64,000 bases of DNA from an uncultured Gammaproteobacteria bacterium (GTDB taxonomy: Bacteria > Patescibacteriota > Patescibacteriia > SG8-24), in contig CAZBFO010000004.1 in the NCBI GenBank assembly GCA_964491475.1, positions 3,290 to 67,289 of the forward strand, given 5' to 3'. Every line of letters begins with the position of its first letter. The stretch's first letter is position 1. A program made the position numbers and the translations under genes. The notes beneath the pieces were generated by a model. The model was not told where the DNA came from and did not search any database. It saw only the letters and a program-made list of their open reading frames with translations. Positions 17,926 through 42,012 of this stretch are shown here, in pieces.

Positions 17926-17944
17926 ACGGAACCGACCCCAAACG

Positions 17945-17976
17945 AAAACGACGGCGCTTGCCGTCGTTTTTTCTTT
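17945..17976. terminator. bidirectional rho-independent terminator
   Basis: stem cgacggc / gccgtcg with gctt loop, A-run on one side and T-run on the other; sits between convergent genes 17200..17925 (+) and 17988..19511 (-). Confidence 0.5.
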
Positions 17977-17987: not shown

Positions 17988-19511
17988 CTAGTTCGCCAGG
18001 AAGATCGTCTTGAGCGCGTCGTACACGGGCTTCTTGCTGCCGTCGTAACGGTACATGCCGAAGAAGTTTTCGGTAGTGACCGTCGAGGTGCCCAAGTCGG
18101 TGTAGGTGTGCCAGAAGAATCCCCCGATCAGCGGGTCGGCCAAGGACAGCGACAGCGCCTCCCTGCCGATGGCCGCCTGCAGGTCCTCGCTCACGTGATC
18201 CGGGCTGTTGGCAAGGTTGTAGTCGGCGGTCGTGGCGAGCGCGCCGGGACCGTTCGTCGGAGCGCCGACCTCGGTGATCCAGATCTTCTTGGTGCCGTCG
18301 CCGTTGCCGTTCATGATGCTGCGGAGGCTGACGCTGGTACTTGACATCTGCTGCCAGGCGTTCCATTCGGCTTTATACGAAGGGAGCACCGGGAACGAGT
18401 ACGGGTGGAAGGCGACTGCATCCATCGAGGGACCGACGCCCAAGGCGTAGGCCTGGGACAGGAAGTCGCGCGGCGAAACGTCGCCGTTGCCGGTCGCGGC
18501 CGGGGCCAGACCGCCGAGCAGCACGGTTGCCGAAGGGTCGCTCTTGCGAACCGCCGGCGCCGCCAGCTTCAGCAGGGCGACGTAATCGGCGACCGCCGAA
18601 GGCGACTGCCAGAAGACGTGCACGTTCTCCTCGTTCCAAATCTCATAGGCGTGCACGCCCATCGGGGCGTAGCGAGCCGCGGCAGTGCCGGCGAATGTGG
18701 CGAACGCGGCAGGATCAGCGGGAGCGCAGCGCGGTGCCGTGCAACCCGATGCGCGAGCCCAAGCCGGCGAGTAGGCCACGACGGCCAACGGCTTCAAACC
18801 ATGCGCGATCGCGGCTTTCACGAAGGTGTCAGGGCCGGTCCAGCTGAAGGAGGCGCTGCTGGTCTGCTGCACTTCGCTCCAGTCGATGTCGAAGCGCACC
18901 CAGGTGACGCCCATCGAGACCATGTCGTTGAGGCGGTTGTTCATCTCGGTGCTCGACAGTCCCATCATGGTCGTGCCGACGGCCATGCCGAAAGGATGCG
19001 TCGAAGCGCTGGAGGCGACCAGCGTGCCGCTGATGGGAGCGGTGCCGGTGCCCGAACCGGAGGTCGGCGCCGTGTTCGTGTTGGTCGGGACGGTATTGGT
19101 ATTGGTCGGCGCCGTGTTGGCGTTGACGACGACCGTGTTGGCGTTTGCGGGAGAAGTATTCGTATTGGTCGGCGCGGGAGAGGGCGTGATCGGAGCGGTA
19201 ACGGGAGAAGTGGCGGGCTTGCGGTAACGCGTACGGGCGTATGTTGCGGCGCGCAGCACCTCTTCCTCGCTGGTGTCGAGGCCGTTCAGCCTGTCCGCCA
19301 GCTTTTTCAGCGCGGACACTTCGGTAGGAACCGCAGCCACGCTCTGGACGCGCGGCAGATCGGATACATCGGGCAGCTCGGGTGCGCGCACCGCCTGCTG
19401 AAGAAGGACGGCCACGGCCGCAATGGTAAAAAGGGCCACTAAACCGTATGCAGCCCCGTTGCGCCATCGCGTGTTGTCCGACGAACGTCGCTCTTGTGGT
19501 GTGTTTGGCAT
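17988..19511 (-). CDS. membrane-anchored glycoside hydrolase, GH5/GH39-like (PslG-like endoglycanase candidate)
   Basis: trimmed to MPNTPQERR...; N-terminal TM AAYGLVALFTIAAVAVLL; Thr/Asn/Pro repeat stalk; (beta/alpha)8 hydrolase motifs ...HAYEIWNEEN... (acid/base Glu) and ...IWITEVG... (nucleophile Glu). Confidence 0.7.
   Translation of the reverse strand: MPNTPQERRSSDNTRWRNGAAYGLVALFTIAAVAVLLQQAVRAPELPDVSDLPRVQSVAAVPTEVSALKKLADRLNGLDTSEEEVLRAATYARTRYRKPATSPVTAPITPSPAPTNTNTSPANANTVVVNANTAPTNTNTVPTNTNTAPTSGSGTGTAPISGTLVASSASTHPFGMAVGTTMMGLSSTEMNNRLNDMVSMGVTWVRFDIDWSEVQQTSSASFSWTGPDTFVKAAIAHGLKPLAVVAYSPAWARASGCTAPRCAPADPAAFATFAGTAAARYAPMGVHAYEIWNEENVHVFWQSPSAVADYVALLKLAAPAVRKSDPSATVLLGGLAPAATGNGDVSPRDFLSQAYALGVGPSMDAVAFHPYSFPVLPSYKAEWNAWQQMSSTSVSLRSIMNGNGDGTKKIWITEVGAPTNGPGALATTADYNLANSPDHVSEDLQAAIGREALSLSLADPLIGGFFWHTYTDLGTSTVTTENFFGMYRYDGSKKPVYDALKTIFLAN
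19062..19175 (-). repeat. in-frame tandem repeat encoding PTNTNT/ANANT linker
   Basis: DNA shows repeated gtgttggt/gtattggt units; translates to PAPTNTNTSPANANTVVVNANTAPTNTNTVPTNTNTAPT within the GH5-like protein. Confidence 0.7.
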
Positions 19512-19537
19512 ACGTGTCCGGTTAAGTGTCCTTTTTG

Positions 19538-21982
19538 TCAGGATAGCACGGCGTTTTGCCTCGATAAAGCTGCCGATTTCCGGCTTAAAACGTACAGTAT
19601 CAGGCCGCAGAGCGCCGTGATGGCGTTTCCGACGATCCAAGCGAAACCGATGCCGGCGAGGCCAAAGCGGAGGAAGGCGTTGGCAAAACCGATGAGGGCG
19701 GCAGCATACACGACGTTGGTGATGACCAAAGCTTTCAGGTTCTTGCTGATGCGGAATAGCGCCGTATAGAAGGACACGATCGCCACGGGCACGCACGCCA
19801 AGGTGATGAGGTCCAAAAAGCGAATGCCGCCGGTGCCGTAGTTCTTGCCGAACATTCGCAGCAGCCACTCGCCGAAGAGCAGCAGGAAAGCCGCGGCGGC
19901 GGCCAAGGCAGGCGCCATGATTCCGATCGCCTTTCGGATATGCCGCTTCAGTTCGGTCTGATCGTGAGAACCCTCGGCGAACAGCGAACGAGTAGTGGCC
20001 CAAGCGACGGTATAGAGCATGTTGCCTATCATCATCACGACGTAAAAATAGGCGGAGCTTGCGGGACCGAGCCTGTTGGTGATCAGAATCGGCAAATACG
20101 TCACCGGAATCAGGTTGAATGCGCCGGCGAAATAATTGCCGGCGCAGTACTTTGCCACCAGTTTTATGACACGGCCGTCCAGCCGCAACTGCGGCCGGTA
20201 TCCCATGTGCCGAATCAGCGCAGCCATGCTCAACGTGAACCCGATGACCTGCGCGAGCGCTGCGGCCAGGTAGATGCCGGTGGCGCCAAGGCTGACGAAA
20301 AACAGCGGGAACATCATCTTGGCGAAGCTGAAGATGGTGTTGATTGCCAGGGTATATTCCGCCTTGCGGTAGGCGAGGAAAACCGAATCCGTGATGATGT
20401 TCAGCGCCATCAGGATGGCGAAGAGCACGAACGCCGCGCTGTACAACGGCGACTGGCGCACGAACGTCAGGCTCGGCGAAATCAGGTGTACGAGCGCGAT
20501 GAAACCGGACGCCAGCAGGAGGGCAGTGACGCTCACCACCAAAAAGCCGGTATTGAGCTTCTGGTTGCGAGTTTCGGACGTCGGAAGGAAGCGCACGAAG
20601 GCCATGTCGAAACCGGCCAGCGAGAGCGTGGCGATCAGGTTCATGATGGCGATCAGCGTTGTCGCCACGCCGATGTCCGCCGCGCCGTACAGGCGGGCAT
20701 TGATGAGCCAGAAGAAGAAACCGAAACCGGCCATCACGGCAGTCGCAAGCATGAGGCAGAGCGAATTCCGAAACAGCACGTCAGCGGAGAGCCTTTCGAG
20801 CAAGGACGGGACGATCCGGCGCAGCCCGCCCTTTCGCCGCACGCCCGTGGCCTCAATGCAGACGGCCTCGAGTTTTTTGGTAGCGGCAAGCCAGCTGCAG
20901 CTGCGTTCGACGTGACGCCGGGCGCGCTCCCCCATCTCCTTGCGCAGGGCGGAGTCAGCAAGAAGCGGAGCGATCGCCGCGGCCAGCGCCTCTGGAGACT
21001 CCGGCTGCGCGTAAGTGACGTTGTCGCCGAACTCCTCCCGCATTCCGCCGATGTCGGCAATGACGACTGCCTTTCCGCAAGCCAAATACTCGTAGACCTT
21101 GAAGGGAGATGTCGCCCCGGCGCGTATCCCGATCGGATAACAGATGCAGATGTCCGAGCTGCCGATGATTGCCGGCACTTCGGCATGAGCGACCGGCGGA
21201 TGCAGCCCGATGCGGTCGGCGAACGGCGAAGCGGCTACGAGCGATGCGATGCGCGGGCCCTCCGGGCCTTTGCCGGTGATGGAAAATCGGACGTCCGCGC
21301 GGCCGGCGCAGACGATTTCTGCGGCTTTCACGATATGCTCCACGCCTTGCCACGAAGCAAAGCTGCCGACATAGCCTACGACGATTTCTCCGTGGGTCGG
21401 TTTTGGCATCGGCTTGAAGACGTCAGTGTCGACGCCGCTCGAAACGAAGGTCACGCGATCGGCGGGAATGCCGTAGGTTGAGATGACGTGATCGCGAATG
21501 CCGGCGGTCACGCCGATCATTCTCTGGGAGTTTCTGAAATTGAAGAGTTCAAGCGCATGAAAGACGCGCAGAGCGGACAGCAACCGGTTGACCGCGCCTT
21601 TGTTGAAGCGGGCGTCATCGCCATACCTGCTGTTCACCTCCTGAACGATAGGCACGCCGAACGCCCTGGCCACGAGGGTCGGGACGAAAAGAAGGTGGCT
21701 GTGCCGAGAATAGATGAAATCTGGACGGCGAAGAACGATTTCGACGCCGAGCCTGACGAGCAATGACAGCTGATAAAACACCGCGAGCATCGCCCGTGGC
21801 GTACGAATGAGCACCGTGTCGATCGGTGCCAGGTACGGGCGCGTACCCGTCTTCGGCGCGAACAGGACCACTCGATGGCCGAGCAGCCTGAAATTACGGC
21901 ACACCTCCAGCACGTGCACGGCCGGAGCGAAGTCGTCATTGAAGTCGAAATCGGTGGTGTAGACGATGTTCATGCGACTCAT
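19538..21982 (-). CDS. fusion protein: GT4 glycosyltransferase + MOP-superfamily (Wzx-like) polysaccharide flippase
   Basis: N-terminal ~390 aa GT-B/GT4 (…GYVGSFASWQGVEH…, EYLACGKAVVIADIGGMRE); C-terminal ~420 aa with ~12 TM helices typical of polysaccharide biosynthesis/Wzx flippases. Confidence 0.75.
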   Translation of the reverse strand: MSRMNIVYTTDFDFNDDFAPAVHVLEVCRNFRLLGHRVVLFAPKTGTRPYLAPIDTVLIRTPRAMLAVFYQLSLLVRLGVEIVLRRPDFIYSRHSHLLFVPTLVARAFGVPIVQEVNSRYGDDARFNKGAVNRLLSALRVFHALELFNFRNSQRMIGVTAGIRDHVISTYGIPADRVTFVSSGVDTDVFKPMPKPTHGEIVVGYVGSFASWQGVEHIVKAAEIVCAGRADVRFSITGKGPEGPRIASLVAASPFADRIGLHPPVAHAEVPAIIGSSDICICYPIGIRAGATSPFKVYEYLACGKAVVIADIGGMREEFGDNVTYAQPESPEALAAAIAPLLADSALRKEMGERARRHVERSCSWLAATKKLEAVCIEATGVRRKGGLRRIVPSLLERLSADVLFRNSLCLMLATAVMAGFGFFFWLINARLYGAADIGVATTLIAIMNLIATLSLAGFDMAFVRFLPTSETRNQKLNTGFLVVSVTALLLASGFIALVHLISPSLTFVRQSPLYSAAFVLFAILMALNIITDSVFLAYRKAEYTLAINTIFSFAKMMFPLFFVSLGATGIYLAAALAQVIGFTLSMAALIRHMGYRPQLRLDGRVIKLVAKYCAGNYFAGAFNLIPVTYLPILITNRLGPASSAYFYVVMMIGNMLYTVAWATTRSLFAEGSHDQTELKRHIRKAIGIMAPALAAAAAFLLLFGEWLLRMFGKNYGTGGIRFLDLITLACVPVAIVSFYTALFRISKNLKALVITNVVYAAALIGFANAFLRFGLAGIGFAWIVGNAITALCGLILYVLSRKSAALSRQNAVLS

Positions 21983-24900
21983 CGGTAAACGCGGGAATCG
22001 CCGTTGTCGTAGAGACGGTCCTTTTGCTCGTCCAGGAAGTCGACCGGATAGCTGTAGAAAAAGGAGGAGTCGTTGTAGTCCGTGGCGCTGACGCGCTTGT
22101 GGATGTTGGCGTAGCCGAGGAAGACGTAGGCGTACTTGCGCACGAGGCCCGGATAAATGTCGAAGAGCACGTTCGTGCCAGCGATGCTGCTCACCTTGCT
22201 GGAAAGAAAGCGGTCGGATTGCACGCTCGCCTGGTACTCGAAGTGCGGGTCATTCGACTTTATTTCGGAAAGCCATTCCACGCCGAGCACTTCCCCGCGA
22301 TGAAGGTAATACTCATCGTAGTAGTCTCCGGAATTGTTCAGGTGCAGCTGCGGTCCGTAGGCTCCCAACGCCTGGGTAAACACGCCGGTCGACGAGTACA
22401 GGAAGACGACCGCCATGACGGCGCCGATGCCGATCCTGACGCGATCGCTTGCGCCCAACGGCCACGCCAGGCTGCCGAGCACGATGAAGATGCCCATGAA
22501 AACCAGGGACTGTTCGAAGGCCCGCATGATGCCGTATTCGACGGAAAGCACGGGGAGAAGCACCAAGGCCAAAATGAACAGCAGGCTGGCGATCGCCATG
22601 AGACCGTATTCGAGGTCGAGCTTGCGCCGCAGGAACCGCCGACCCAGCAGGCAGGCGCCCATGCCGACGAAAATGAGGATTTGCAGCAGCTTGGCGGTGC
22701 CCTGCCTGAAATCGTAGTTGAACGCGGCCACATCGACCCCCAGCGACTGCAACCATCGTCCGACGGGCGTCAGCTCGAGGACGACCGGCTTGGAGGCGGT
22801 CACTTCGTCCTTACGGTATTCGGCCGGCGCGAAAAACGTTCCCGGCAATTCCCTGCCGCGCGCCTTCTCGACCACCTTGTTCTGATATTCGGCGAGCAGC
22901 TCGGCCGGCGTTTGGCTCTTGTGCCACGAGAAGAGGCTGTAAAGCACCGTCCCCGATTGCGCGTCCTCACGGACATTGCTGCGCATGACGGCGACGGTCT
23001 TTACGACGACGCGGTACAGGCTGTTCGAAGACGTGTCGGTCAGCACGCTGCTCCAAAGAAAGCTGGCACCGCCCAAAATGATGACGACCGGAACCGTAAT
23101 CACGTAACCCCTCGGAACCGGCCCTGACGGCGTGAGGGCGACGCCCGCCCGCTTGAACCATCCCCACTTCGCCAAAAGACGGACGATGGGCCGGGTGAAA
23201 AGCAGGATGAGCATCAGCAAGATGACCGTGTACGTGGTTGAATAGTGCGACAGCACCAAACCAAATCCCAGCGACACGAACAGCCGTCTGCGCAGCTTGA
23301 GCGAAATGTCGGTGGCGAAGGCCAAGTACGTCATTATCGCCACGAACATGAAGGCGATCTCCTGGCGGTCCAGCATGGGCATGTCCCCGAAGAAGGTCGG
23401 AAACGCCATGAAATAGATCGCGTTCATGACCGCCAGCGTCGAAGACACGAATCGGCGCGTGGTAAGGTACAGGACGCTCGGAACGGTCGCGAAGAGGATT
23501 TGAAAGAAGACCTTGTACGCGTACGGGTCGGAAAACTTGAGCGTGCGCGCAAACATCACCGGCAGAATCGTGATGCTGATGCAGGCGTTGTAGGCGTCGT
23601 GAAAGTTCGCGATGGACCAGTAGCCGTTATGTTTCGTCAGCTGGAATACGCGGAATTCGCGCTGCACGTCGTGGCCGGTCGTAAACCAGCCGCGAAGCGA
23701 GGTCATGAAGAGCAGGGAGAGCCCCATGAAGAACAGGGCCGTCGCGACGGCGTCGGGATGAATGCGCTTTGCGCGCCACATCAGAAGGCCCGCGTACGCC
23801 CCGATGCCCACGAGCATCGCGTAGGTCAGCCACGAGCTGCCGCCGTTGTTGAGCAGGATGGCCCCGAAGGCGCTCATCGCCACGAATACCGACGGGAAAA
23901 ACGCCAAAACGACATCACCGGTTTTTCCCAGGAACGAGAAATCGAATGGCACGTATTCGACCTTCGCGCGCAGGATGCAGACGATGGCCAGGGCATAGAC
24001 CAGCAACGTGGTCTCAATCAATATGTACGGTCCGTACAGCGGTTGCGCGATGCCCAGCAACGGAAAGACGGTGTTGCCCAAAAGGCCCGCCAGCATGAGC
24101 TCAAGAACGCCGAAACCGATGACCAGGCTCAAGCTGCCCCACAACGGCATGCTCTTGAGGCGGATGGCCAAGACCGTCAAATAGCCCGGCACCAGAACCA
24201 GCGAAAGGAACCCGACGATGTTCAGCATCTGATAACTGTTGAACTGCAAAGCCGACAGCACCGTAAAAGCCGACCAGGCCAGCATGGCCGCGGCCAGGCC
24301 GCCGAATGCAGGAGCGCGGTCGAGGACGGCGGGACGCGCCTTGGCGGCAACGCCGTCATACGCTGCTTGAATCCGCCCGACGAAAACGTCGACGGTATGG
24401 AGTCTCGCCTTTGCCGCGCTGGCGCGCGACAAATCCGAAAGCAGGCGCTTCTTCTCCCAAAGCATCTCGATGACCTGGACGAACTGCTCGACATACGGCT
24501 CGTTGACCAGGATGCCCGTGTCGCCCAACAGGCCCGCAATGCCGCTGACGTTGGTGCCTACGACCGGCAACCCTCCGGCCATCGCCTCCAAGACGACCAG
24601 AGGCGTACCGCCTTCGCGATCGGAAGAAATCAGCAGCATGTCGTTCGATGCGTGATAGGCCTTCATCTCGGCGTCATTCTTGCTGCCGACGAACGTCACG
24701 TTGTGACGAGAGTGCTCGGCCACCAGCTTTTCGAGCGCCCGCCGCTCTTCACCGTCGCCCACGACCGTCAGATGCGCCGGTACTTTCAGTTGCGCAACGG
24801 CCTCGATCAGGCGTTCGACGCGTTTCTGGCGCGCCAGACGCCCGACGTACAAAAGGCGGAAGACGTCCTCGTGCGGCACGTAATCGCGCCGTACGAAAAA

Positions 24901-25461
24901 GTCCGCTTTGACGGCGTTAGGGATGATCGAGATGCGATCGGACCGCACGCCGTATTTTTTTTGCAGGACGGACGCCTGATCCTCTGCGCAGACGATGATC
25001 CGGCTGGCACCGCGGAACAGCGGCACCCACGCAAGTCGCTTGTAGAGGAGAAACAGCGTGCCGAACGGGCCAGAGGGACCGACATCGAGATGAAAGTGAA
25101 CCACGTACCGGAGATTCCTCACCCGAGCGGCAAGCATGACCAGCTCCGGCCAATAGGCCTGCGAAAGATGCAGATGCAAAATGCTGTCCTTCGGGAGCTT
25201 CATGAGCTCCCAAAAAAGTCCCGGAGCAAAAGGCGTGTGCGCGAATTCGAAGCTTGCCAGCCGCTTGACGGTCAGGTTCCCGACGGTATTGCTGCCGCGC
25301 CGATCGCCTTGCGAGGACGCCAAAACGAGGACGCGATGGCCCGCCGCGGCCATGGCCTCCGCGATCGTGCGCGCCACGCGCTCCAAGCCGCCGACGTACG
25401 GCGGATAGTGCGGGCTAAGATGTACCAAAAGCGGCTGCTTGCTCATATTCACGAAAGGCAA
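21979..25461 (-). CDS. fusion protein: GT4 glycosyltransferase + ~770-aa polytopic membrane domain of unknown function (GT-C-like/DUF2206-like candidate)
   Basis: N-terminal GT4 (…LLYVGRLARQKRVERL…, PLVVLEAMAGGLPVVGTNVSGIAG); then >15 predicted TM helices and a C-terminal ~120-aa soluble domain. Confidence 0.7.
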   Translation of the reverse strand: MPFVNMSKQPLLVHLSPHYPPYVGGLERVARTIAEAMAAAGHRVLVLASSQGDRRGSNTVGNLTVKRLASFEFAHTPFAPGLFWELMKLPKDSILHLHLSQAYWPELVMLAARVRNLRYVVHFHLDVGPSGPFGTLFLLYKRLAWVPLFRGASRIIVCAEDQASVLQKKYGVRSDRISIIPNAVKADFFVRRDYVPHEDVFRLLYVGRLARQKRVERLIEAVAQLKVPAHLTVVGDGEERRALEKLVAEHSRHNVTFVGSKNDAEMKAYHASNDMLLISSDREGGTPLVVLEAMAGGLPVVGTNVSGIAGLLGDTGILVNEPYVEQFVQVIEMLWEKKRLLSDLSRASAAKARLHTVDVFVGRIQAAYDGVAAKARPAVLDRAPAFGGLAAAMLAWSAFTVLSALQFNSYQMLNIVGFLSLVLVPGYLTVLAIRLKSMPLWGSLSLVIGFGVLELMLAGLLGNTVFPLLGIAQPLYGPYILIETTLLVYALAIVCILRAKVEYVPFDFSFLGKTGDVVLAFFPSVFVAMSAFGAILLNNGGSSWLTYAMLVGIGAYAGLLMWRAKRIHPDAVATALFFMGLSLLFMTSLRGWFTTGHDVQREFRVFQLTKHNGYWSIANFHDAYNACISITILPVMFARTLKFSDPYAYKVFFQILFATVPSVLYLTTRRFVSSTLAVMNAIYFMAFPTFFGDMPMLDRQEIAFMFVAIMTYLAFATDISLKLRRRLFVSLGFGLVLSHYSTTYTVILLMLILLFTRPIVRLLAKWGWFKRAGVALTPSGPVPRGYVITVPVVIILGGASFLWSSVLTDTSSNSLYRVVVKTVAVMRSNVREDAQSGTVLYSLFSWHKSQTPAELLAEYQNKVVEKARGRELPGTFFAPAEYRKDEVTASKPVVLELTPVGRWLQSLGVDVAAFNYDFRQGTAKLLQILIFVGMGACLLGRRFLRRKLDLEYGLMAIASLLFILALVLLPVLSVEYGIMRAFEQSLVFMGIFIVLGSLAWPLGASDRVRIGIGAVMAVVFLYSSTGVFTQALGAYGPQLHLNNSGDYYDEYYLHRGEVLGVEWLSEIKSNDPHFEYQASVQSDRFLSSKVSSIAGTNVLFDIYPGLVRKYAYVFLGYANIHKRVSATDYNDSSFFYSYPVDFLDEQKDRLYDNGDSRVYR

Positions 25462-27731
25462 TCGGAAATGAGCGCTCGGTACTGCGCCACCTGCGCGGCC
25501 ATGCCGTACTTGGTGCGGGCCTTGCGGACGCCGTTGGCGGCGAGATGCCGGGCAAAGGGCTCGTCGCTCAACACGCGGCGAATGGCGGCGGCAAGCGCGG
25601 ACTCGTCGCCGGGAGTCACCAGCAGGCCGTCTTCGCCGTCGGCGATGACCTGCGGGATGCCGCCGACGTTCGAACCGATGACCGGGCGGCCGCTGGCCAT
25701 GGCCTCGATGAGAACGATGCCGAACGCTTCGGCGCCCGTGAGCGACGGCAGCGTCAACGCGCTGCTGCGGCGGTACGCCCGCACCAGTTCGTCGCCGAGC
25801 ATCGGACCGGAAAAGATGACGTTCCGCTCGATGCCGAGATCCTTGGCCATGGCACGATAGCGCGGCACGGCGTCTCCGCCGCCGACCAATTCCAATTTGG
25901 CGTCGGGAATCGACCGCGCGACGAGCTTCATGGCGCGAAGCAGCGCCGCAATCCCCTTCCAGGAAGAGGTCTCCTCGATGCGGCCCACGAACAGCACCGT
26001 CTTGCTGCCGGACGGCAGCGGGGTAGCGGCGAAACGTTCATCATCCACGGAGGGAGGGATGTCGTGCACCTTGGCGCGGAACTCCGGAAAGGCGCTCTCG
26101 AAATATTTGGTCGAAATGGCGACGATCGCCCGCGCCTTCTTGAACAGCAGGCGCAGCACGTACTGTTCGTACGCCCAAATCACGGCATCGATCGGGTAGC
26201 GGCCCTTGCGCATGCTGCCGGCGTGATACGTCACCAAGACGGGCGTCTGGCCTGCGGCCATGGCAGCCACGTCGGCGATGAAGGGCACCGGGGAGTGCGC
26301 GTGAACGAGTTGCGGCTTGGCGAATCGGAAGAGCTTGCGCAGCCAGAAGTACCACATCGGATTGACCGGCGTGTTCGACACGCGGAAGGCCGTCGGCAGA
26401 CGGTGCACGGTCATGCCGTCGATGACGTCCTGGCGGTAACCGGCGCCGTCGTGATTGCTGGTAATCACGCTGACGTCGCAGTCGCCGGATCGCTGCAGCC
26501 GGCGGGAAAGCTCGTAGGAGTAATTCTCGAGGCCTCCGATCTTCGGGTAGAAGTACGGAACGACCACGGCAATGCGCGTTTTGCCCGGAACCCCTTCCGG
26601 AAGGGCGCCGCGCAAAAACGCCTCGTACGCCGCGGCGCGCGATTCCCACATGTAGGCGGCGCCGATCTTGGCGCGTCCGGCGGCTCCCATCGCGGCGGCC
26701 AGGGCGTCGTCCTTGAGCAACCGCGTTATCCGTGCGGCAAAGGCGGGCGCGTCTCCCGGAGCGCAGGTGAAACCGTTTACGCCGTCCTCCACCAGACCGC
26801 TGCCGATTTTGCCGCAGACCACGGGCAGCCCGCAGCTCATTGCCTCGAGCACCACCATCGAGAAGCTGTCGTTGTGCGTCGGCAGGCAGAACACGCGTGA
26901 CTCCTGATATGCGCGCACCAATGCGGCCCCTTCGGCCTTGCCGTAAAAACGCACGGCCCCCGCAAGACCGAGCAGGCGTATTCGCTCCTCATGTTCCGAA
27001 CGCATGTCGCCGTCTCCGACCACCAGCAGGCGTGCCGCAGGAATCTCGGCGGCCACCGGCACGAAGGCGTCGATCAGCGTTTGCAGGCCCTTGTGCTGTT
27101 CCGAACGTCCCAAGCCGCCCACGAACAGCACCGTCGGTTCGGGTTTCCGGCTGCCGGCCGCAGGAACGAAAACGGAACCGTCGACGGCGGGCGTGACGGT
27201 CGTGCTCTTGTACCTGTAGGCGCGCAAAAAGTCGTTGCGCACGGCATCCGACGAGCAGATAATGCGGTCGGCGCGGCGCAGCAGCAGGGGCAGGAGCACT
27301 TTTTCGTATGCCCAAATGACCGGATCGACCCAGCGGTTGCCCTTGCGCATGCTCAAGCCGTGATAGGTCACGACGACCGGCGTCTTGCCGGCGACGAGCG
27401 AGGCGATGTCACCGATGCCGGGGACGGGCATGTGCACGTTGATGACGGCAGGGCGAAGTTCCCGGATGATGCGCCTGATCTTGAACGGCCACAGGAACGC
27501 AAAAGGCATGTTCGACCATTTACAGGCGTAGGCCAGCTTATGCACGGTGATGCCGTCGACCGCGGCGATCTCGTCCTTGCCGAAACGGGCGCCGGATGTG
27601 ACAAAGGTGACCTTCCAACCATGCGTTGCCCGCAGCCGCTTGGCCATTGCCAGGGCATAACGCTCCAACCCTCCGCCGTTCGGCGGAAAGTAAGGCGTGA
27701 CGAACAGGATGTTCGTTTGTTCCTGGCGCAT
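25449..27731 (-). CDS. tandem double GT4 glycosyltransferase
   Basis: two complete GT-B/GT4 units (…VLFVGGLGRSEQHKGL…SMVVLEAMSCGLPVV… and …VLFVGRIEETSSWKGI…GIVLIEAMASGRPVIGSNVGGIP…). Confidence 0.8.
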   Translation of the reverse strand: MRQEQTNILFVTPYFPPNGGGLERYALAMAKRLRATHGWKVTFVTSGARFGKDEIAAVDGITVHKLAYACKWSNMPFAFLWPFKIRRIIRELRPAVINVHMPVPGIGDIASLVAGKTPVVVTYHGLSMRKGNRWVDPVIWAYEKVLLPLLLRRADRIICSSDAVRNDFLRAYRYKSTTVTPAVDGSVFVPAAGSRKPEPTVLFVGGLGRSEQHKGLQTLIDAFVPVAAEIPAARLLVVGDGDMRSEHEERIRLLGLAGAVRFYGKAEGAALVRAYQESRVFCLPTHNDSFSMVVLEAMSCGLPVVCGKIGSGLVEDGVNGFTCAPGDAPAFAARITRLLKDDALAAAMGAAGRAKIGAAYMWESRAAAYEAFLRGALPEGVPGKTRIAVVVPYFYPKIGGLENYSYELSRRLQRSGDCDVSVITSNHDGAGYRQDVIDGMTVHRLPTAFRVSNTPVNPMWYFWLRKLFRFAKPQLVHAHSPVPFIADVAAMAAGQTPVLVTYHAGSMRKGRYPIDAVIWAYEQYVLRLLFKKARAIVAISTKYFESAFPEFRAKVHDIPPSVDDERFAATPLPSGSKTVLFVGRIEETSSWKGIAALLRAMKLVARSIPDAKLELVGGGDAVPRYRAMAKDLGIERNVIFSGPMLGDELVRAYRRSSALTLPSLTGAEAFGIVLIEAMASGRPVIGSNVGGIPQVIADGEDGLLVTPGDESALAAAIRRVLSDEPFARHLAANGVRKARTKYGMAAQVAQYRALISDCLS

Positions 27732-27742
27732 ATCGTGAATGA

Positions 27743-28441
27743 TTACGGCAGCTCCGCGTTAATGACGCAGCGCACGTCCGAGGCGGCGGCAATGTGCGCG
27801 AAGACGCGTTCCAGCCTTCGCCAATCGCCGTTCTTTTCGATTTCCCAAGAATGGCCCCAGAGGTGGAACGCGGAACCTTCGGCACAGGCTTTGTCGAAAA
27901 GCGCATTGGCCAGTTTGTCCCAGTTGAGATAGCAGCGCAGGAACTTGCCGGGGCCGACGGCACGCAGGATGGCGAGAGCGTCGGACCAATGTCGGTAGGC
28001 GTGAACGGTCGTGGTCAGCGCGAAGCGGTTGGCATCGGCCGCAGGACCGAAGCGGCGCACGGTGCGTGCCAGGGTGAACCCCGCCTCTGCCGCCATGGCT
28101 TCGTGCCGAGCTGAAAAATCCCCGCAGGGATAGCAGAACGAGGTGACCGGCCTGCCGGTGACGCGTTCGAGGTATTCGCGCGACTCGCGCATTTCCTCCA
28201 GTGCCCGATCATCGGGAATACGCGAAATGCGCGGATGGGTCATAGTATGCGCGCCGATCTCGGCCTCCGCGGCCAACGCGCGAATCTGCTGGTCGGTCAG
28301 GCGGTCATCCGGAGCCACTTCCCTGCTCCGCGGAGCCACGTAGAACGTCCCCTTAAGGCCGTATTTCCGCAGCAAAGCAAGCACTTTCAGATCGAGCTTG
28401 TGCCCGTCATCCCAGCTTGTCGTCACTGCGGTTCGTTTCAT
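27743..28441 (-). CDS. polysaccharide deacetylase (NodB/CE4 family)
   Basis: TSWDDGH motif (Asp-Asp metal/catalytic pair), later His residues; 232 aa. Confidence 0.8.
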   Translation of the reverse strand: MKRTAVTTSWDDGHKLDLKVLALLRKYGLKGTFYVAPRSREVAPDDRLTDQQIRALAAEAEIGAHTMTHPRISRIPDDRALEEMRESREYLERVTGRPVTSFCYPCGDFSARHEAMAAEAGFTLARTVRRFGPAADANRFALTTTVHAYRHWSDALAILRAVGPGKFLRCYLNWDKLANALFDKACAEGSAFHLWGHSWEIEKNGDWRRLERVFAHIAAASDVRCVINAELP

Positions 28442-28446
28442 AGGTT

Positions 28447-30294
28447 TCAGCCGAATACGCGCTGCAGGCTGCCGGCGACCTTCTGCCAGTCGTAGCGCTC
28501 GATGTCCTGACGGGGGCGCAAGTCGTCGCGCGTGGCGAGCACCTGGAGCATCTTCGAAGCCAGGGCGTCGACGTCGGGAGTCACCAGAAACCCGTTGACC
28601 CCTTCGCTGATCAGTTCCTTGGCGGCGTTGTTTTCATGTTCGGTGGTTATGACCGGAATGTCGGCGGCGTTCGCCTCGACCACCACCAGGCCGAAGCCTT
28701 CGCGGACGGACGGCAGCACCAGCATCTTCGACGCCTTCATCTTGGCGTAGACGTCCTCTGCGCCTTCGATGGCGCCGTAGAAGGTCACGTTTTCCTCCAG
28801 GCCGAGCTCGGCAACCAGCGCCTGCAGCTTCTGCCGCTCCGGACCGACGCCGACGATGGCCGTGCGGAACTGCGGATGAATCATCTTCACCGTCGCGGTG
28901 GCGCGAATCAGCAGGTCGACGTTCTTGTGGTCGATCAGTCGGCCGACGTAAATGGCGTCGCTGCCTTCCGCCGCGGGAACGGCGGCAGTGATACTCTCGA
29001 GGTCGGCGCCCAGCGGCACCGTCACGATTTCACAGCGCACGTTCTCCAGGCGCAGGCGGCGCGTGGTGTGCTCGGAGTTGGAGATGATGACGTCCGGCAG
29101 GCGCATGGAAAGGCTCTCCACGGCGTGACCGAGGAGGCCGGAGACGCCGCCCAGATAGTGCTTCCAATAGGCGCGTCCCCAGACTTCATGCCAGGTGGCG
29201 TGCAGCTTTTTGCCGCGCACCCAAGTGGCCAGGCGGGCGCCGAGCAGCGGGAAGAACGGCATGTGGTCGACGTCGATCACGTCAAACTTGGCGAAGGCCA
29301 GCTTCAGCGAGGCCAGCCCGAAGCACAGCGCCTGCAAAATGGAGCGGCGGCCGTTCACGTACATCGGACGATGGCCGCAGAGCGCGTGGTAGCGGATGCC
29401 GTCCACGACCTTGATCTTCGGGCCTTCCCACCACTGCATGGTGTAGATGCGCACTTCGCAGTCGTCGGAGACCATGCGGCGGGCGATCTCGTACAGGCGC
29501 TTCTCCTTGCCGCCCTGATGGAACGGCATGACGGCGTCGGACACGAACGCCAGGGTGCGGACGTCCGGCTTTTCCGGTTCCCAAACGAGCACGCGCAGGA
29601 ACATCGACATGATGCGCGCGCCGTCGGTGAGCGGGTTCAGGTTGCTTTCGCCGGCGCGGGCGTCGTAGCTGATGGGGACGCAGTAAATCTCCTCGCCCAG
29701 CCTGGCCATCTTGGTGACCATCTCCATCTCGATCGAGAAGTCGGTCGACTTGAGGTGCGGGGCGAGACGGAGCAGCGACTCGCGCTTCCAGGCGAAGTAG
29801 CCGGTCAGCACGTCGGTCACGTTGGCGCCATAAAAATAGCGGACCAGGTGCGAGAAGATCCAGTTGCCGATGCGGTTGACGGCGCCCATCGAACCTTCGG
29901 AAATGCGGCCCGCGAGGCGCGAACCGATGACCACGCTGCAAAAGCCGGAATCGAGCGGTTCAACCAGGCGCAGCACCTCTTCGGGGCGGTAGGTGTCGTC
30001 GCCGTCGAGCATCACCACGTAGTCGGCGTCGTTCTGGGCGACGTACTCGAAGCCGTGGCGGATGGCGTTGCCCTTGCCCTTCTTGTCTTCGGACAGCACC
30101 GTGGCGCCGTTCTCGCGGGCGATCTCGGCGGTACGGTCCTTGGAGTTGTTGTCGATGACGATGACCTCGAGCTCGTAGCCGAAAGCCGCAAGGCGCTCCT
30201 TGGGGAACTTGCGGATGACCGAAGCGATGCCCTGCTCTTCGTTGTAGCAAGGGATCAGGACCGCGATTTTCTTTTTCACGTCCGGTTGATGCAT
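28447..30294 (-). CDS. fusion protein: GT2 (polyprenyl-phosphate sugar synthase, DPM1/GtrB-like) + GT4 glycosyltransferase
   Basis: N-terminal GT-A: IPCYNEE, VIDNNSKDRT, VVMLDGDDT (DxD); C-terminal GT-B/GT4: …AIYVGRLIDHKNVDLL…GLVVVEANAADIPVITT…. Confidence 0.8.
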   Translation of the reverse strand: MHQPDVKKKIAVLIPCYNEEQGIASVIRKFPKERLAAFGYELEVIVIDNNSKDRTAEIARENGATVLSEDKKGKGNAIRHGFEYVAQNDADYVVMLDGDDTYRPEEVLRLVEPLDSGFCSVVIGSRLAGRISEGSMGAVNRIGNWIFSHLVRYFYGANVTDVLTGYFAWKRESLLRLAPHLKSTDFSIEMEMVTKMARLGEEIYCVPISYDARAGESNLNPLTDGARIMSMFLRVLVWEPEKPDVRTLAFVSDAVMPFHQGGKEKRLYEIARRMVSDDCEVRIYTMQWWEGPKIKVVDGIRYHALCGHRPMYVNGRRSILQALCFGLASLKLAFAKFDVIDVDHMPFFPLLGARLATWVRGKKLHATWHEVWGRAYWKHYLGGVSGLLGHAVESLSMRLPDVIISNSEHTTRRLRLENVRCEIVTVPLGADLESITAAVPAAEGSDAIYVGRLIDHKNVDLLIRATATVKMIHPQFRTAIVGVGPERQKLQALVAELGLEENVTFYGAIEGAEDVYAKMKASKMLVLPSVREGFGLVVVEANAADIPVITTEHENNAAKELISEGVNGFLVTPDVDALASKMLQVLATRDDLRPRQDIERYDWQKVAGSLQRVFG

Positions 30295-30303
30295 ACGTCG
30301 TCG

Positions 30304-30738
30304 CTAGATGGTCCGAGGAAGGGTGAAGTGAATCGATCGTCCGAAGTCCGGCAGATCGACGAAGAACTCGACTTTCGGCGAGGCAGCCGTGAAGAAGTAC
30401 TTCTGCTCGATCAGCTGCTTCTCCCCGTCCGGAATCGTCACCGTCGTCTCCGTCAGCGTCGTGACCGGCCGGTTGCCGTTCTGCATGGTGACGCGGTAGC
30501 GGTAGTCGACCTGCCGACCCTCGAGGTTACGGATGTAAAAGCGGAATGTCAGGAAACTGCCCTCTTGGATGGCCGTCATGGCGGGCAAGTTGTCGTCAAA
30601 GTACAGCTCGGTGAGACGTTCCTCTTTCGGCCACAGGTTCAGCTTGGTCAGTTCGTTTTTGAGGTAGCCGGTCTCGACGGCATACGCAAAAGCCGAAAGC
30701 ATGATCACACCGGCAAAAATGGCGATGATTCGACGCAT
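30304..30738 (-). CDS. small membrane-anchored hypothetical protein (first gene of glycan locus)
   Basis: ATG at 30738 (MRRIIAIFAGVIMLSAFAYA TM anchor); ~125-aa extracytoplasmic domain; 10 nt upstream of GT2-GT4 gene. Confidence 0.45.
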   Translation of the reverse strand: MRRIIAIFAGVIMLSAFAYAVETGYLKNELTKLNLWPKEERLTELYFDDNLPAMTAIQEGSFLTFRFYIRNLEGRQVDYRYRVTMQNGNRPVTTLTETTVTIPDGEKQLIEQKYFFTAASPKVEFFVDLPDFGRSIHFTLPRTI

Positions 30739-31189
30739 AACGGCCCGAAAAATAAGGCGAAAGACGACGCCTACACTTACCACGAATTTGTCGCTGTGTC
30801 AAGCCAATCCTTGGTCGTGTTGACCCTCCCAAACCCCCGTGCTACCTTGAAAACAGGTACGTTCATATTCAATCCTGCGAGAAATGACCGAAGGGTGGCC
30901 GCAAACTGCAGTTCTGGCGTGGCAACCCTGTGACGATATGAGGAATTCGACCAATGGTAATCCTGAATGGGCACACGCGGTAATCGAGACGTTCGTCCCG
31001 GGCGCACTTGCCTCGGAAAAGACGGACGGTGAGCGTGACGTAAACAGCCCGGAACAAGCAAAAACAAACGCCTGATACCCTTCAGGCGTGCTTGCCATTG
31101 CGACAACCTGCATATCGCGCACGCCTTCCGGCGTCGCTTGCCGTCGCTGACGGCACGGCCGAAACCTCGCAGGAATGTAGAGGTTTTTT

Positions 31190-41957: not shown

Positions 41958-42012
41958 GGATGGTCGCGAACCGCGATTTCGGCGCGACAACGGGAAGCGG
42001 AGGGTTGTAGCA

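What the first reader, a model, noticed from the sequence alone, without database searches (positions are those of the whole stretch)
17988..30738. Compact 13-kb glycan/EPS locus built almost entirely from unusual glycosyltransferase fusion proteins
Seven minus-strand genes are packed with overlaps or gaps of 13 nt or less, which suggests a single operon. Together they encode one GT2 and six GT4 domains, plus a putative GT-C-like membrane domain.

These domains are spread over only four polypeptides: GT2-GT4, GT4-GT4, GT4 fused to a 770-aa polytopic membrane domain, and GT4 fused to a Wzx-type flippase. The locus also holds a NodB/CE4 deacetylase, a membrane-anchored GH5/GH39-like hydrolase (a PslG-like trimming enzyme) and a small anchored protein.

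The usual partners of a Wzx pathway are absent from the window: no priming phosphoglycosyl transferase (WbaP/WecA-like), no Wzy, no Wzz/PCP and no export protein. The fused domains may therefore substitute for them. The combination of sugar-adding, deacetylating and glycan-cleaving activities suggests a partially de-N-acetylated, processed surface polymer that has not been characterised.
Basis: partly seen in the sequence, partly recalled or inferred. Interest (0 to 1): 0.8.

Follow-up and report, generated by a model that had tools for sequence, protein, structure and literature searches.

The report
Conserved envelope-glycan operon with fused glycosyltransferases
This is a real seven-gene operon, one copy of an unstudied sugar-chain assembly line shared by ultra-small Patescibacteria, Actinomycetota and Chloroflexota, which probably starts on a lipid monophosphate carrier and ends with a new family of membrane glycosyltransferase (DUF2206).

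Summary
Seven co-directional genes (17988-30738, minus strand) encode one GT2 domain and five GT4 domains (not six). They also encode a CE4 deacetylase, a 783-aa DUF2206 membrane domain, a Wzx-type flippase domain, a PslG-like hydrolase and a small DUF1616-like anchored protein.

The locus is not a one-off. The same module recurs around DUF2206 in Patescibacteria, Actinomycetota and Chloroflexota. In 51 loci with full flanks, GT2 and GT4 are present in 51 and Wzx in 49. The domains are split into polypeptides differently in each lineage.

No phosphoglycosyl transferase was detected beside DUF2206 in any of 80 loci. The GT2 belongs to the DPMS/AglJ/ArnC polyprenyl-monophosphate class, so an initiating enzyme is probably present. 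The deacetylase is cytoplasmic.

Best model (inferred): an archaeal Agl-like pathway in which an oligosaccharide is built on polyprenyl-P, flipped, and transferred by the GT-C. The main rival is a three-component GT2/flippase/GT-C decoration system. I found no paper on DUF2206.

The parts
30304..30738 (-). g1: 144-aa N-terminally anchored small protein, DUF1616-like. It is the first gene of the operon.
   Evidence: One predicted TM at aa 4-22. Weak Pfam DUF1616 hit, 19.7 bits, below cutoff. Detected in 37 of the 80 related loci, usually opening the module. Conserved motif TELYF..LP...F.F.IHN.E...Y.Y.V.
29575..30294 (-). g2 N-terminal domain (aa 1-240): GT2 of the polyprenyl-phosphate glycosyltransferase class (DPMS/AglJ/ArnC-like). 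Proposed initiating enzyme.
   Evidence: Pfam Glycos_transf_2 at 91 bits. NCBIfam AglJ TIGR04182 at 198 bits and Dol-P-hexose transferase at 109 bits, both below the equivalog cutoffs. Nearest PDB entries are P. furiosus DPMS 5mlz (E 8e-13, aligned over aa 8-241) and ArnC. Motifs DGDD97, GSR124, TDVLTG160 and GES215 are present.
28447..29532 (-). g2 C-terminal domain: GT4a (GT-B fold, nucleotide-sugar dependent, cytoplasmic).
   Evidence: Pfam Glyco_transf_4 plus Glycos_transf_1, E 2e-36. A GT2-GT4 fusion is also seen in 9 related loci.
27743..28441 (-). g3: CE4 (NodB-type) deacetylase, predicted cytoplasmic.
   Evidence: Pfam Polysacc_deac_1 at 73 bits. No TM or signal sequence. Motifs WDDG10, HTMTH65, YPCG104 and LWGH194 are present. 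Fused to GT4 domains in 21 ORFs among relatives. Weak HfsH and NodB hits.
25449..27731 (-). g4: GT4b-GT4c double glycosyltransferase (760 aa).
   Evidence: Two full GT4 units in Pfam. This is the commonest fusion in relatives, found in 25 of 80 loci and in about 70 proteins of about 745 aa.
24331..25446 (-). g5 N-terminal domain: GT4d (cytoplasmic).
   Evidence: Pfam GT4 over aa 18-342. A GT4-DUF2206 fusion is present in about 14 other proteins and 9 loci.
21979..24330 (-). g5 C-terminal domain (783 aa): DUF2206, a polytopic GT-C fold glycosyltransferase. Proposed extracytoplasmic transferase of the pathway.
20813..21982 (-). g6 N-terminal domain: GT4e (cytoplasmic).
   Evidence: Pfam GT4 over aa 20-364. 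NCBIfam TIGR04063 at 115 bits.
19538..20812 (-). g6 C-terminal domain (424 aa): Wzx-type MOP-superfamily flippase.
   Evidence: Pfam Polysacc_synt is only 18.5 bits for this protein, but orthologues pass the cutoff at 46 bits. AF2 model has pLDDT 84.7. Best Foldseek PDB match is WzxE lipid III flippase (TM-score 0.77-0.79), followed by MATE and MurJ.
17988..19511 (-). g7: membrane-anchored extracytoplasmic clan GH-A hydrolase (PslG-like) with a Thr/Asn/Pro-rich linker.
   Evidence: TM at aa 19-37 and linker at about aa 100-165. Pfam Cellulase at 25.8 bits. Nearest PDB entry is PslG, E 2.3e-17 over aa 178-502. The WNEEN292 and ITEVG412 motifs carry the typical acid/base and nucleophile Glu residues.
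17944..17971 (.). GC-rich hairpin between the end of g7 and the convergent gene 17158-17925. Likely bidirectional terminator marking the operon end.
   Evidence: Terminator-like site with 12 pairs and a T-run on the + strand, with a weaker site on the - strand. Consensus match only.
30739..31189 (.). Intergenic region between g1 and the divergent RNase Y gene. Presumed promoter region of the operon.
   Evidence: This is the only long non-coding gap bordering the seven genes. No sigma-70-type consensus was found, so this is positional inference only.

Best explanation
The seven genes form one operon. It is a local version of a conserved module that builds a cell-envelope glycoconjugate.

Proposed mechanism:
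(1) The DPMS/AglJ-like GT2 domain transfers a first sugar, probably an N-acetylhexosamine or hexose, from a nucleotide sugar to polyprenyl monophosphate on the cytoplasmic face.
(2) The five GT4 domains extend this lipid-linked sugar into an oligosaccharide. The cytoplasmic CE4 enzyme de-N-acetylates one residue between glycosyl-transfer steps.
(3) The Wzx-type domain flips the lipid-linked oligosaccharide.
(4) The DUF2206 GT-C domain transfers it to an acceptor on the outer face, either a wall polymer, a protein or a lipid, or joins units together. Its active site is in an extracytoplasmic loop carrying the invariant H-D...E motif.
(5) The anchored PslG-like hydrolase trims or releases the product.

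The fusions (GT2-GT4, GT4-GT4, GT4-GT-C, GT4-Wzx) are lineage-specific packaging of enzymes that work as one membrane-associated assembly line.

Shown here: gene content, domain families, folds, conservation of the module, and variability of the fusions. Inferred: the lipid carrier, the order of steps, the donor of the GT-C, the acceptor and the sugars.
For: -
- GT2, GT4, Wzx and DUF2206 co-occur almost invariably. In 51 loci with full 20-kb context from three phyla, GT2 is in 51, GT4 in 51, Wzx in 49, GH5-like in 41 and CE4 in 39.
- GT4 domains are found fused to each of the other three core parts: GT2-GT4 (9 loci), GT4-DUF2206 (9 loci), and GT4-Wzx or Wzx-GT4 (window, L036, L071, P0249, P0260, P0291, P0320). 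GT2-Wzx also occurs (P0368). This ties all parts to a single pathway.
- Gene order is largely colinear: GT2, then GT4, then CE4, then GT4s, then DUF2206.
- Only one flippase was identified in the window's seven-gene operon. That fits a single lipid-linked intermediate.
- No WecA- or WcaJ-type PGT lies within 10 kb of DUF2206 in 80 loci, and none was found among the window ORFs scanned.
- The GT2 keeps the DxD, catalytic Asp and C-terminal GES motifs aligned with P. furiosus DPMS.
- From my own knowledge: Haloferax AglJ and Methanococcus AglK start N-glycans on dolichyl monophosphate, and the GT-C enzyme AglB transfers them.
- The CE4 is cytoplasmic, with no TM or signal sequence and fusions to GT4.
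Against: - No biochemical or expression data exist.
- The GT2 scores below the AglJ equivalog cutoff (198 against 325 bits).
- A PGT encoded elsewhere in the genome cannot be excluded, because only 64 kb is available.
- The PGT search used two E. coli seeds with jackhmmer. The same method failed to link E. coli WzxC to the Wzx orthologues, so its sensitivity is limited.
- Known GT-C enzymes that transfer oligosaccharides are STT3/AglB/PglB-type. DUF2206 lacks their WWDYG motif.
- Most GT-C enzymes use polyprenyl-P-monosaccharide donors, which favours the rival model.
- A MOP/MATE flippase can serve a monosaccharide-lipid donor (PMC11127046).
Confidence: 0.45

Rival explanations
1. Three-component decoration or extension system plus a separate cytoplasmic glycan. 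The GT2 makes a polyprenyl-P-monosaccharide, the MOP-family protein flips that donor, and the DUF2206 GT-C adds single sugars outside the cell. This would resemble GtrB/GtrA/GtrC, ArnC/ArnT, Ppm1/Pmt, the GT136 system, or the Ppm1/GT-C steps of lipomannan and GPI synthesis. The GT4 domains and CE4 would build the acceptor, for example a glycolipid or lipoglycan core, on another lipid.
For: - The invariant trio of GT2, MOP flippase and GT-C is exactly the three-component signature described in PMC11127046. In that system a MATE-family flippase serves a polyprenyl-P-pentose donor.
- The nearest structural neighbours include Pmt4, ArnT, AftA, ALG9/12 and PIG-M, all of which use monosaccharide-lipid donors.
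- Some homologues hit Pfam PMT_2.
- The hydrolase has a Thr/Pro-rich linker of the kind that Pmt enzymes O-glycosylate.
- The combination of GT4, deacetylase, flipping and GT-C parallels GPI and PIM/LAM logic (from my own knowledge).
Against: - The module would then need a second export route for the GT4-built glycan, and none was identified among the domains surveyed.
- GT2-GT4 fusions and the colinear gene order suggest the GT2 product is handed directly to a GT4.
- GT4 domains are fused to the flippase and to the GT-C as well.
Confidence: 0.3
2. Conventional undecaprenyl-diphosphate pathway primed by a PGT encoded elsewhere, such as a housekeeping WecA/TagO-like enzyme. GT2 and the GT4s add sugars, Wzx flips the repeat unit, and DUF2206 replaces Wzy and/or the ligase. 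The product would be a secondary cell-wall polymer or EPS (Psl-like or SCWP-like), with PslG-like trimming.
For: - The overall gene set resembles Psl (GT2, three GT4s, PslG, Wzx).
- Pyruvyl transferases occur in about 20 of 80 related modules, as in pyruvylated wall polymers.
- A GH5 orthologue carries peptidoglycan-binding domains (L029).
- TagO/WecA genes are often unlinked from their glycan loci (from my own knowledge).
Against: - The GT2 is specifically of the polyprenyl-monophosphate acceptor class, not a typical chain-extending GT2.
- No PGT was found next to any of the 80 modules.
- No GT-C enzyme is known to act as a Wzy-type polymerase.
Confidence: 0.15
3. The fusions, especially the unique GT4-Wzx order, are assembly or frameshift artefacts or decaying pseudogenes, and the locus is not functional as read.
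For: The GT4-then-Wzx order was found only in this genome, both among the 1.84 billion representative proteins (top 150 hits) and in the word-indexed search.
Against: - All seven ORFs are intact, with full-length domain matches on both sides of every junction.
- A separately generated assembly in the Logan collection (SRR12313479), possibly of the same reads, is identical over 5,468 nt. It calls the same 760-, 1155- and 814-aa products.
- The other three fusion types recur in many genomes.
- Wzx-GT4 fusions in the opposite order exist.
- The topology is compatible, with cytoplasmic GT4 domains on the cytoplasmic termini of Wzx and the GT-C.
- GC3 is 0.73-0.88 across the genes, as in the neighbouring housekeeping genes.
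Confidence: 0.03

Closest known systems
Archaeal Agl N-glycosylation (Haloferax volcanii AglJ/G/I/E-AglR-AglB; Methanococcus voltae AglK-AglC-AglB)
   Same: - A DPMS-like GT2 puts the first sugar on a polyprenyl (dolichyl) monophosphate. AglJ is the best NCBIfam hit for the window's GT2.
- Soluble or peripheral GTs extend the glycan.
- A Wzx-like flippase (AglR) flips it.
   Different: - The extenders here are GT4, not GT2.
- DUF2206 lacks the WWDYG motif of AglB/STT3/PglB and has about 6 extra N-terminal TM helices.
- A cytoplasmic CE4 and an extracellular PslG-like hydrolase are added.
- The hosts are bacteria.
- The acceptor is unknown.
Three-component extracytoplasmic glycosylation systems (GtrA/GtrB/Gtr*, ArnC/ArnEF/ArnT, CsbB/GtcA/YfhO, GacI/GacL, the GT136 pentofuranose system of PMC11127046)
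   Same: The trio of a polyprenyl-P-sugar synthase GT2, a flippase (MATE/MOP in the GT136 system) and a GT-C enzyme is the invariant core here too.
   Different: - Those systems have no set of 3-6 GT4 domains, CE4 or hydrolase.
- Their parts are not fused to other GTs.
- Their flippase is usually a small GtrA/SMR protein.
- Their GT2 has its own TM anchor, whereas here it is fused to a GT4 instead.
Pseudomonas aeruginosa Psl (Wzx/Wzy-dependent exopolysaccharide)
   Same: Psl has one GT2 (PslC), three GT4s (PslF/H/I), a Wzx-like PslK and the endoglycosidase PslG. PslG is the nearest solved relative of g7.
   Different: - Psl has a WbaP-type PGT (PslA), a Wzy-like PslJ, and the PCP/OPX export proteins PslE and PslD. 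None was found here.
- Psl has no GT-C and no CE4.
Caulobacter holdfast pathway (HfsH) and rhizobial NodB
   Same: A cytoplasmic CE4 deacetylase acts on a lipid-linked or nascent oligosaccharide before export through a Wzx. Weak HfsH and NodB NCBIfam hits were found.
   Different: - Holdfast synthesis is PGT-primed (HfsE).
- It uses Wzy polymerases and an OPX/PCP export apparatus.
- It has no GT-C.
Mycobacterial PIM/LM/LAM and eukaryotic GPI-anchor biosynthesis
   Different: - The deacetylase family differs (PIG-L, not CE4).
- Those pathways have no Wzx and no hydrolase.
- DUF2206 is a distinct GT-C family.
- The lipid acceptor here is unknown.

Membership tests
GT-C superfamily of membrane glycosyltransferases (for the DUF2206 domain) | GT-C fold: a polytopic helical core shared with OST, PMT, ArnT, ALG and Aft enzymes | tested here: met
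GT-C superfamily of membrane glycosyltransferases (for the DUF2206 domain) | Conserved acidic residue(s) in an extracytoplasmic loop directly after a TM helix | tested here: inconclusive
   D221 and E225 (motif TGHD.Q.E) are invariant in 57 sequences. They lie in the loop 212-296, which is predicted to be outside by helix count and the positive-inside rule. Equivalence to catalytic Asp residues of known GT-C enzymes was not mapped residue by residue.
GT-C superfamily of membrane glycosyltransferases (for the DUF2206 domain) | Uses a polyprenyl-phosphate-linked sugar donor | not testable with these tools
   Supported only by invariable co-occurrence with a DPMS-like GT2 (51 of 51 loci).
STT3/AglB/PglB oligosaccharyltransferases (GT66) | WWDYG motif and a C-terminal periplasmic domain with DK/MI motif | tested here: not met
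   There is no WWD in g5 or in the family consensus. No sequence-level PDB hit was found. The similarity is in fold only, so DUF2206 is not filed as an OST.
Wzx / polysaccharide-transport (PST) family of the MOP superfamily (for the g6 C-terminal domain) | Match to Pfam Polysacc_synt or Polysacc_synt_3 above the gathering score | tested here: inconclusive
   The window protein scores 18.5 bits against a 28.2 cutoff. Orthologues at 45-50% identity score 36-52 bits and pass.
Wzx / polysaccharide-transport (PST) family of the MOP superfamily (for the g6 C-terminal domain) | 12-TM MOP fold | tested here: met
   AF2 model has pLDDT 84.7. The top Foldseek hits are WzxE 9g9p and 9g9n (TM-score 0.77-0.79, prob 1.00), followed by MATE and MurJ.
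Polyprenyl-phosphate glycosyltransferases of GT2 (DPMS/DPM1, AglJ/AglK, GtrB, ArnC, PpgS) | Closest relatives are members of this class, with alignment across the whole catalytic domain including the DxD, catalytic Asp and C-terminal GES(K) motifs | tested here: met
   NCBIfam scores: AglJ 198 bits, Dol-P-hexose transferase 109, PpgS 57, ArnC 45. PDB: DPMS 5mlz E 8e-13 over aa 8-241, followed by ArnC. Motifs are at positions 97, 160 and 215.
Polyprenyl-phosphate glycosyltransferases of GT2 (DPMS/DPM1, AglJ/AglK, GtrB, ArnC, PpgS) | Reaches an equivalog-level score for a named enzyme | tested here: not met
   198 bits against the AglJ cutoff of 325, and 109 against 375 for the halobacterial Dol-P-hexose transferase. 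The class assignment holds; the specific enzyme and sugar are unknown.
Polyprenyl-phosphate glycosyltransferases of GT2 (DPMS/DPM1, AglJ/AglK, GtrB, ArnC, PpgS) | C-terminal TM helices anchoring the enzyme (present in GtrB, ArnC and PfDPMS; absent in human DPM1) | tested here: not met
   No TM segment is predicted in g2. The domain is followed by a GT4 instead. Membrane association would have to come from interface helices or partner proteins.
Wzx/Wzy-dependent polysaccharide pathway | Initiating phosphoglycosyl transferase (WecA/MraY-type PF00953 or WbaP/PglC-type PF02397) | tested here: not met
   None was found among about 37 window ORFs scanned with Pfam. Jackhmmer with E. coli WecA and WcaJ gave no hit in the six-frame ORFs of 80 related loci plus the window. 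Sensitivity is limited, and the rest of the genome was not seen.
Wzx/Wzy-dependent polysaccharide pathway | Wzy polymerase and a Wzz/PCP chain-length regulator | tested here: not met
   No such Pfam family was found in the scanned ORFs. WzzE gave no jackhmmer hit. Wzy is too divergent for a firm negative.
CE4 (NodB-type) deacetylases | Polysacc_deac_1 domain with the Asp-Asp and His-x-x-x-His metal/catalytic motifs | tested here: met
   73 bits. WDDG at aa 10 and HTMTH at aa 65.
Clan GH-A hydrolases, PslG-like (GH39/GH5) | (beta/alpha)8 catalytic domain with an N-E acid/base motif and a T-E nucleophile motif | tested here: met
   Pfam Cellulase at 25.8 bits, above the 23.5 cutoff. PslG E 2.3e-17. 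WNEEN at aa 292 and ITEVG at aa 412. The CAZy family (GH5 versus GH39) was not resolved.

The most novel reading that the evidence does not exclude
The locus represents a previously unrecognised, ancient envelope-glycan pathway of monoderm 'Terrabacteria' (Patescibacteria, Actinomycetota, Chloroflexota). The pathway would be archaeal in style:
- The glycan is started on polyprenyl monophosphate by a DPMS-like GT2, without any phosphoglycosyl transferase.
- It is extended by GT4s, with a cytoplasmic de-N-acetylation step.
- It is flipped by a Wzx.
- It is transferred en bloc, or polymerised, by a new GT-C family (DUF2206) that is neither an STT3-type OST nor a Wzy.

In Patescibacteria it could be the main surface glycan at the epibiont-host interface.
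Probability: 0.35. Interest if true: 0.8.

Novelty: new variant of a known kind. Interest (0 to 1): 0.62.

Why it matters
Glycosylation in Saccharibacteria and other Patescibacteria is explicitly described as unexplored (bioRxiv 10.1101/2024.11.25.624915). Their surface is what contacts the host bacterium.

This module gives a concrete, conserved candidate pathway. It assigns a fold and a probable role to DUF2206, a domain of unknown function with at least 625 detected homologues and no literature. It also suggests that bacteria can build complex lipid-linked glycans without a phosphoglycosyl transferase, as some archaea do.

The variable fusion patterns act as natural 'Rosetta stone' evidence for which enzymes work together. 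The module also occurs in cultured actinomycetes (Streptomyces specialis, S. gilvus, Actinoplanes liguriensis), so the hypothesis is directly testable by genetics and lipid-linked-oligosaccharide mass spectrometry.

Tried and rejected
- **Artefact hypothesis for the fusions.** Rejected. The ORFs are intact, a separately generated Logan assembly is identical, and the same fusions recur elsewhere.
- **Sequence search of the DUF2206 domain against PDB.** Nothing found, so fold comparison was needed.
- **PGT, Wzz and Wzx search in 80 loci with E. coli WecA, WcaJ, WzzE and WzxC as jackhmmer seeds.** No hits except for WcaK. WzxC also missed the true Wzx orthologues, so these negatives are only moderately informative.
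- **Recent transfer from actinobacterial hosts.** Not supported. In an NJ tree of DUF2206 domains the window sequence nests among Patescibacteria (a rough tree with no support values).
- **Literature.** No paper mentions DUF2206. The only DUF1616 mention is an N-glycosylated Haloferax membrane protein. Nothing was found on Saccharibacteria flippases or GT-C enzymes.
- **Other dead ends.** Fold search against afdb50 was unavailable. The sigma-70 promoter scan found nothing in the locus.
- **Organism identity.** It is therefore inferred from the closest homologues (Saccharimonadales, Adlerbacteria) and from gene content.


Full report
**1. What is in the sequence**

Between 17988 and 30738 the minus strand carries seven consecutive ORFs:
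- g1, 30304-30738, 144 aa
- g2, 28447-30294, 615 aa
- g3, 27743-28441, 232 aa
- g4, 25449-27731, 760 aa
- g5, 21979-25446, 1155 aa
- g6, 19538-21982, 814 aa
- g7, 17988-19511, 507 aa

The spacings are 9, 5, 11 and 2 nt, then a 4-nt ATGA overlap, then 26 nt. GC3 is 0.73-0.88, as in the neighbouring housekeeping genes.

The block is bounded upstream by a 450-nt gap and the divergent RNase Y gene. Downstream, a GC-rich hairpin (17944-17971) faces a convergent gene. The flanks encode IF-2, TruB, LeuRS, thioredoxin reductase, a class II aaRS, GyrA, RNase III, ComEC and a PilB-type ATPase.

**2. Domain content**

Pfam and NCBIfam give:
- g2 = GT2 + GT4
- g3 = CE4
- g4 = GT4 + GT4
- g5 = GT4 + DUF2206 (61 bits, cutoff 35.6)
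- g6 = GT4 + a polytopic C-terminal domain
- g7 = TM anchor + Thr/Asn/Pro-rich linker + clan GH-A domain
- g1 = TM anchor + a weak DUF1616-like domain

That makes one GT2 and five GT4 domains.

The nearest solved relative of g7 is PslG (E 2.3e-17). The typical N-E and T-E catalytic motifs are present. The CE4 has the Asp-Asp and His-x-x-x-His motifs but no signal peptide or TM segment.

**3. The two membrane domains**

*DUF2206 domain.* It has no sequence-level match in the PDB. With a 57-sequence alignment, AlphaFold2 gave a confident model (pLDDT 86, pTM 0.91).

The family has an invariant T-G-H-D-x-Q-x-E motif. By helix counting from the cytoplasmic GT4 fusion point and the positive-inside rule, this motif lies in an extracytoplasmic loop. 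The family lacks the WWDYG motif of STT3-type oligosaccharyltransferases.

DUF2206 is therefore a GT-C enzyme of its own family, not an OST by membership.

*g6 C-terminal domain.* It is below the Pfam threshold by itself (18.5 bits). Its orthologues pass. Its model (pLDDT 84.7) matches the WzxE lipid III flippase best (TM-score 0.77-0.79), then MATE and MurJ.

**4. Are the fusions real?**

Yes, for four reasons.
- All junctions are flanked by full-length domain matches.
- A separately generated assembly in the Logan collection (SRR12313479), possibly of the same reads, is identical to the window over 5,468 nt. It calls the same 760-, 1155- and 814-aa products.
- GT2-GT4, GT4-GT4 and GT4-DUF2206 fusions recur in many other genomes.
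- The GT4-then-Wzx order of g6 was found only in this genome, even in an exhaustive search of 1.84 billion representatives. However, Wzx-then-GT4 fusions exist (P0249, P0260, P0291, P0320, L036). So do Wzx fusions to GT2, pyruvyl transferase and an AMP-binding enzyme.

**5. The locus is one instance of a conserved module**

A scan of 185,579 species genomes with the DUF2206 alignment found 350 relatives, and 80 loci were retrieved. I tiled the window's eleven domains over six-frame ORFs of these loci.

The same set recurs: a DUF1616-like protein, GT2, several GT4, CE4, DUF2206, Wzx and a GH5-like hydrolase. The order is usually the same.

Carriers include:
- Patescibacteria (Saccharimonadia, Adler-, Kaiser- and Yonathbacteria, Paceibacteria)
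- Actinomycetota (Acidimicrobiia, Streptosporangiaceae, Frankiaceae, Streptomyces specialis, S. gilvus, Actinoplanes liguriensis)
- Chloroflexota (Ktedonobacteraceae)
- A few MAGs labelled Gammaproteobacteria or Acidobacteriota

In the 51 loci with full 20-kb context, GT2 and GT4 are present in 51, Wzx in 49, the hydrolase in 41 and CE4 in 39.

The partition into polypeptides differs from genome to genome. L002, a Saccharimonadales MAG, has GT2 | GT4 | CE4-GT4 | GT4-GT4-DUF2206 | GT4 | Wzx | GH5. L020 has three GT4 domains fused to DUF2206. Standalone DUF2206 proteins of about 785 aa are the norm.

The interesting object is therefore the module. The window's fusions are one packaging of it.

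In a rough NJ tree, the window's DUF2206 nests among Patescibacteria. Its closest homologues are from Saccharimonadales and Adlerbacteria. The window's 62% G+C is higher than that of the related patescibacterial loci, which range from 39 to 55%.

**6. The 'missing' partners**

No WecA/MraY-type or WbaP-type phosphoglycosyl transferase, Wzy or Wzz was found among about 37 window ORFs. Jackhmmer with E. coli WecA, WcaJ and WzzE found nothing in any of the 80 loci. The caveat is that the same approach missed the Wzx orthologues with WzxC.

However, the GT2 domain is not a generic GT2.
- Its best family matches are AglJ (198 bits), a halobacterial dolichyl-phosphate hexose transferase, PpgS and ArnC.
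- Its nearest solved structures are Pyrococcus dolichyl-phosphate mannose synthase and ArnC. The alignment to DPMS spans the whole catalytic domain, including the DxD, catalytic Asp and C-terminal G-E-S motifs.

This class charges polyprenyl monophosphate with a sugar. An initiating, lipid-charging enzyme is therefore present, but of the monophosphate type. The scores are below the equivalog cutoffs, so the sugar is unknown.

**7. How it most likely works**

*Best model (confidence about 0.45).* GT2 makes polyprenyl-P-sugar. The five GT4 domains extend it, and the cytoplasmic CE4 de-N-acetylates a residue on the way. Wzx flips the lipid-linked oligosaccharide. The DUF2206 GT-C transfers it to an envelope acceptor. 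The anchored PslG-like enzyme trims or releases the product.

Arguments for this model:
- The four core parts co-occur invariably.
- GT4 domains are found fused to each of GT2, GT-C and Wzx.
- The gene order is colinear.
- Only one flippase was identified.
- No PGT was found.
- From my own knowledge, there is an archaeal precedent: AglJ and AglK prime on dolichyl monophosphate, and the GT-C enzyme AglB transfers the glycan.

*Main rival (about 0.30).* GT2, the MOP flippase and the GT-C form a three-component system that adds single sugars outside the cell, as reviewed and extended in PMC11127046, where a MATE-type flippase carries the lipid-monosaccharide donor. The GT4s and CE4 would build the acceptor.

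This fits the donor preference of most GT-C enzymes. It leaves the export of the GT4 product unexplained.

*Third reading (about 0.15).* A distal PGT primes a conventional diphosphate pathway, with DUF2206 standing in for Wzy or the ligase.

*Hints that the product is wall-associated.* The hydrolase orthologue in L029 carries peptidoglycan-binding domains. About a quarter of the modules carry a pyruvyl transferase.

None of these steps has experimental support. The carrier, sugars, order of steps and acceptor are all inferences.

**8. Comparison with known systems and novelty**

The module shares logic with:
- archaeal Agl N-glycosylation
- three-component GT-C glycosylation systems
- Psl
- the holdfast pathway (cytoplasmic CE4 HfsH)
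- PIM/LAM and GPI synthesis

It is a member of none of them. It lacks the OST motif, the PGT, Wzy and PCP of Wzx/Wzy systems, and the small flippase and TM-anchored GT2 of Gtr-type systems.

No paper in the searchable library mentions DUF2206. A recent preprint calls Saccharibacteria glycosylation unexplored.

I rate it a new variant of a known kind: a lipid-linked glycan assembly line with a new GT-C family and probably PGT-independent initiation. Interest is about 0.6.

Noticed in passing
L032 12356-13720; L029 12316-13617; L025 12282-15461; L044 13856-16552; P0252: About 20 of 80 related modules carry a polysaccharide pyruvyl transferase (PS_pyruv_trans, WcaK/CsaB-like) between DUF2206 and Wzx. 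It is sometimes fused to the Wzx. The window has the GT4e-Wzx gene at that position and no pyruvyl transferase, so the glycan probably differs between lineages.
   Followed up: partly
P0237-P0243; L005 13442-15664; L045 8866-11076: The closest Wzx homologues (about 50% identity) are about 700 aa: a Wzx plus a conserved C-terminal extension of about 280 aa with no Pfam family. There is only a sub-threshold RimK-like ATP-grasp hint (15 bits). L030 and L068 carry extensions of about 600 aa.
   Followed up: partly
L050 1158-3950 / P0335; P0282; P0368: Wzx proteins of this subfamily are also fused to an AMP-binding (adenylating) enzyme, to an exosortase (EpsH) domain, and to a GT2. Flippases fused to cytoplasmic tailoring enzymes seem to be a recurrent theme.
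   Followed up: no
L029 16137-18311: The hydrolase orthologue of one relative carries two PG_binding_1 domains and an fn3 domain ahead of the GH5-like domain. This points to a peptidoglycan-associated site of action.
   Followed up: no
window 1-64000 compared with L002-L045: The window is 57-66% G+C (about 62% in the locus). Related patescibacterial loci are 39-55%. No Shine-Dalgarno-like motif precedes any of the seven genes. The organism is inferred, not shown, to be a Saccharimonadia-like patescibacterium.
   Followed up: partly
window 48123-49160 (-) and 49934-50575 (-): A DAGK_cat lipid kinase and a PAP2-family phosphatase lie about 20 kb from the operon. The PAP2 enzyme could recycle polyprenyl diphosphate or phosphate, but this was not examined.
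   Followed up: no
window 41851-43026 (+) and 43125-44024 (-): Two adjacent proteins carry FGE-sulfatase (formylglycine-generating-enzyme-like) domains, next to tRNA-Lys (41755-41830). Their function here is unknown.
   Followed up: no
window 36930-38459 (-): A 509-aa ORF has only a marginal Baseplate_J hit (20.6 bits, just below the cutoff). Several neighbouring ORFs have no Pfam match: 10294-11127, 12162-12941, 17158-17925 and 55999-57459.
   Followed up: no
window 62286-63972 (+): A PnuC-type nicotinamide mononucleotide transporter is followed by an AAA_28/NadR-like protein. This is consistent with a scavenging, host-dependent lifestyle.
   Followed up: no
L027 19674-21959; L054 and L073 around 10000-12300: One Yonathbacteria locus has a second, divergent DUF2206 gene about 7 kb downstream of the first. 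In L054, L055 and L073 the DUF2206 match is split into two stretches, and in L055 into two ORFs. This may reflect frameshifts or divergence.
   Followed up: no
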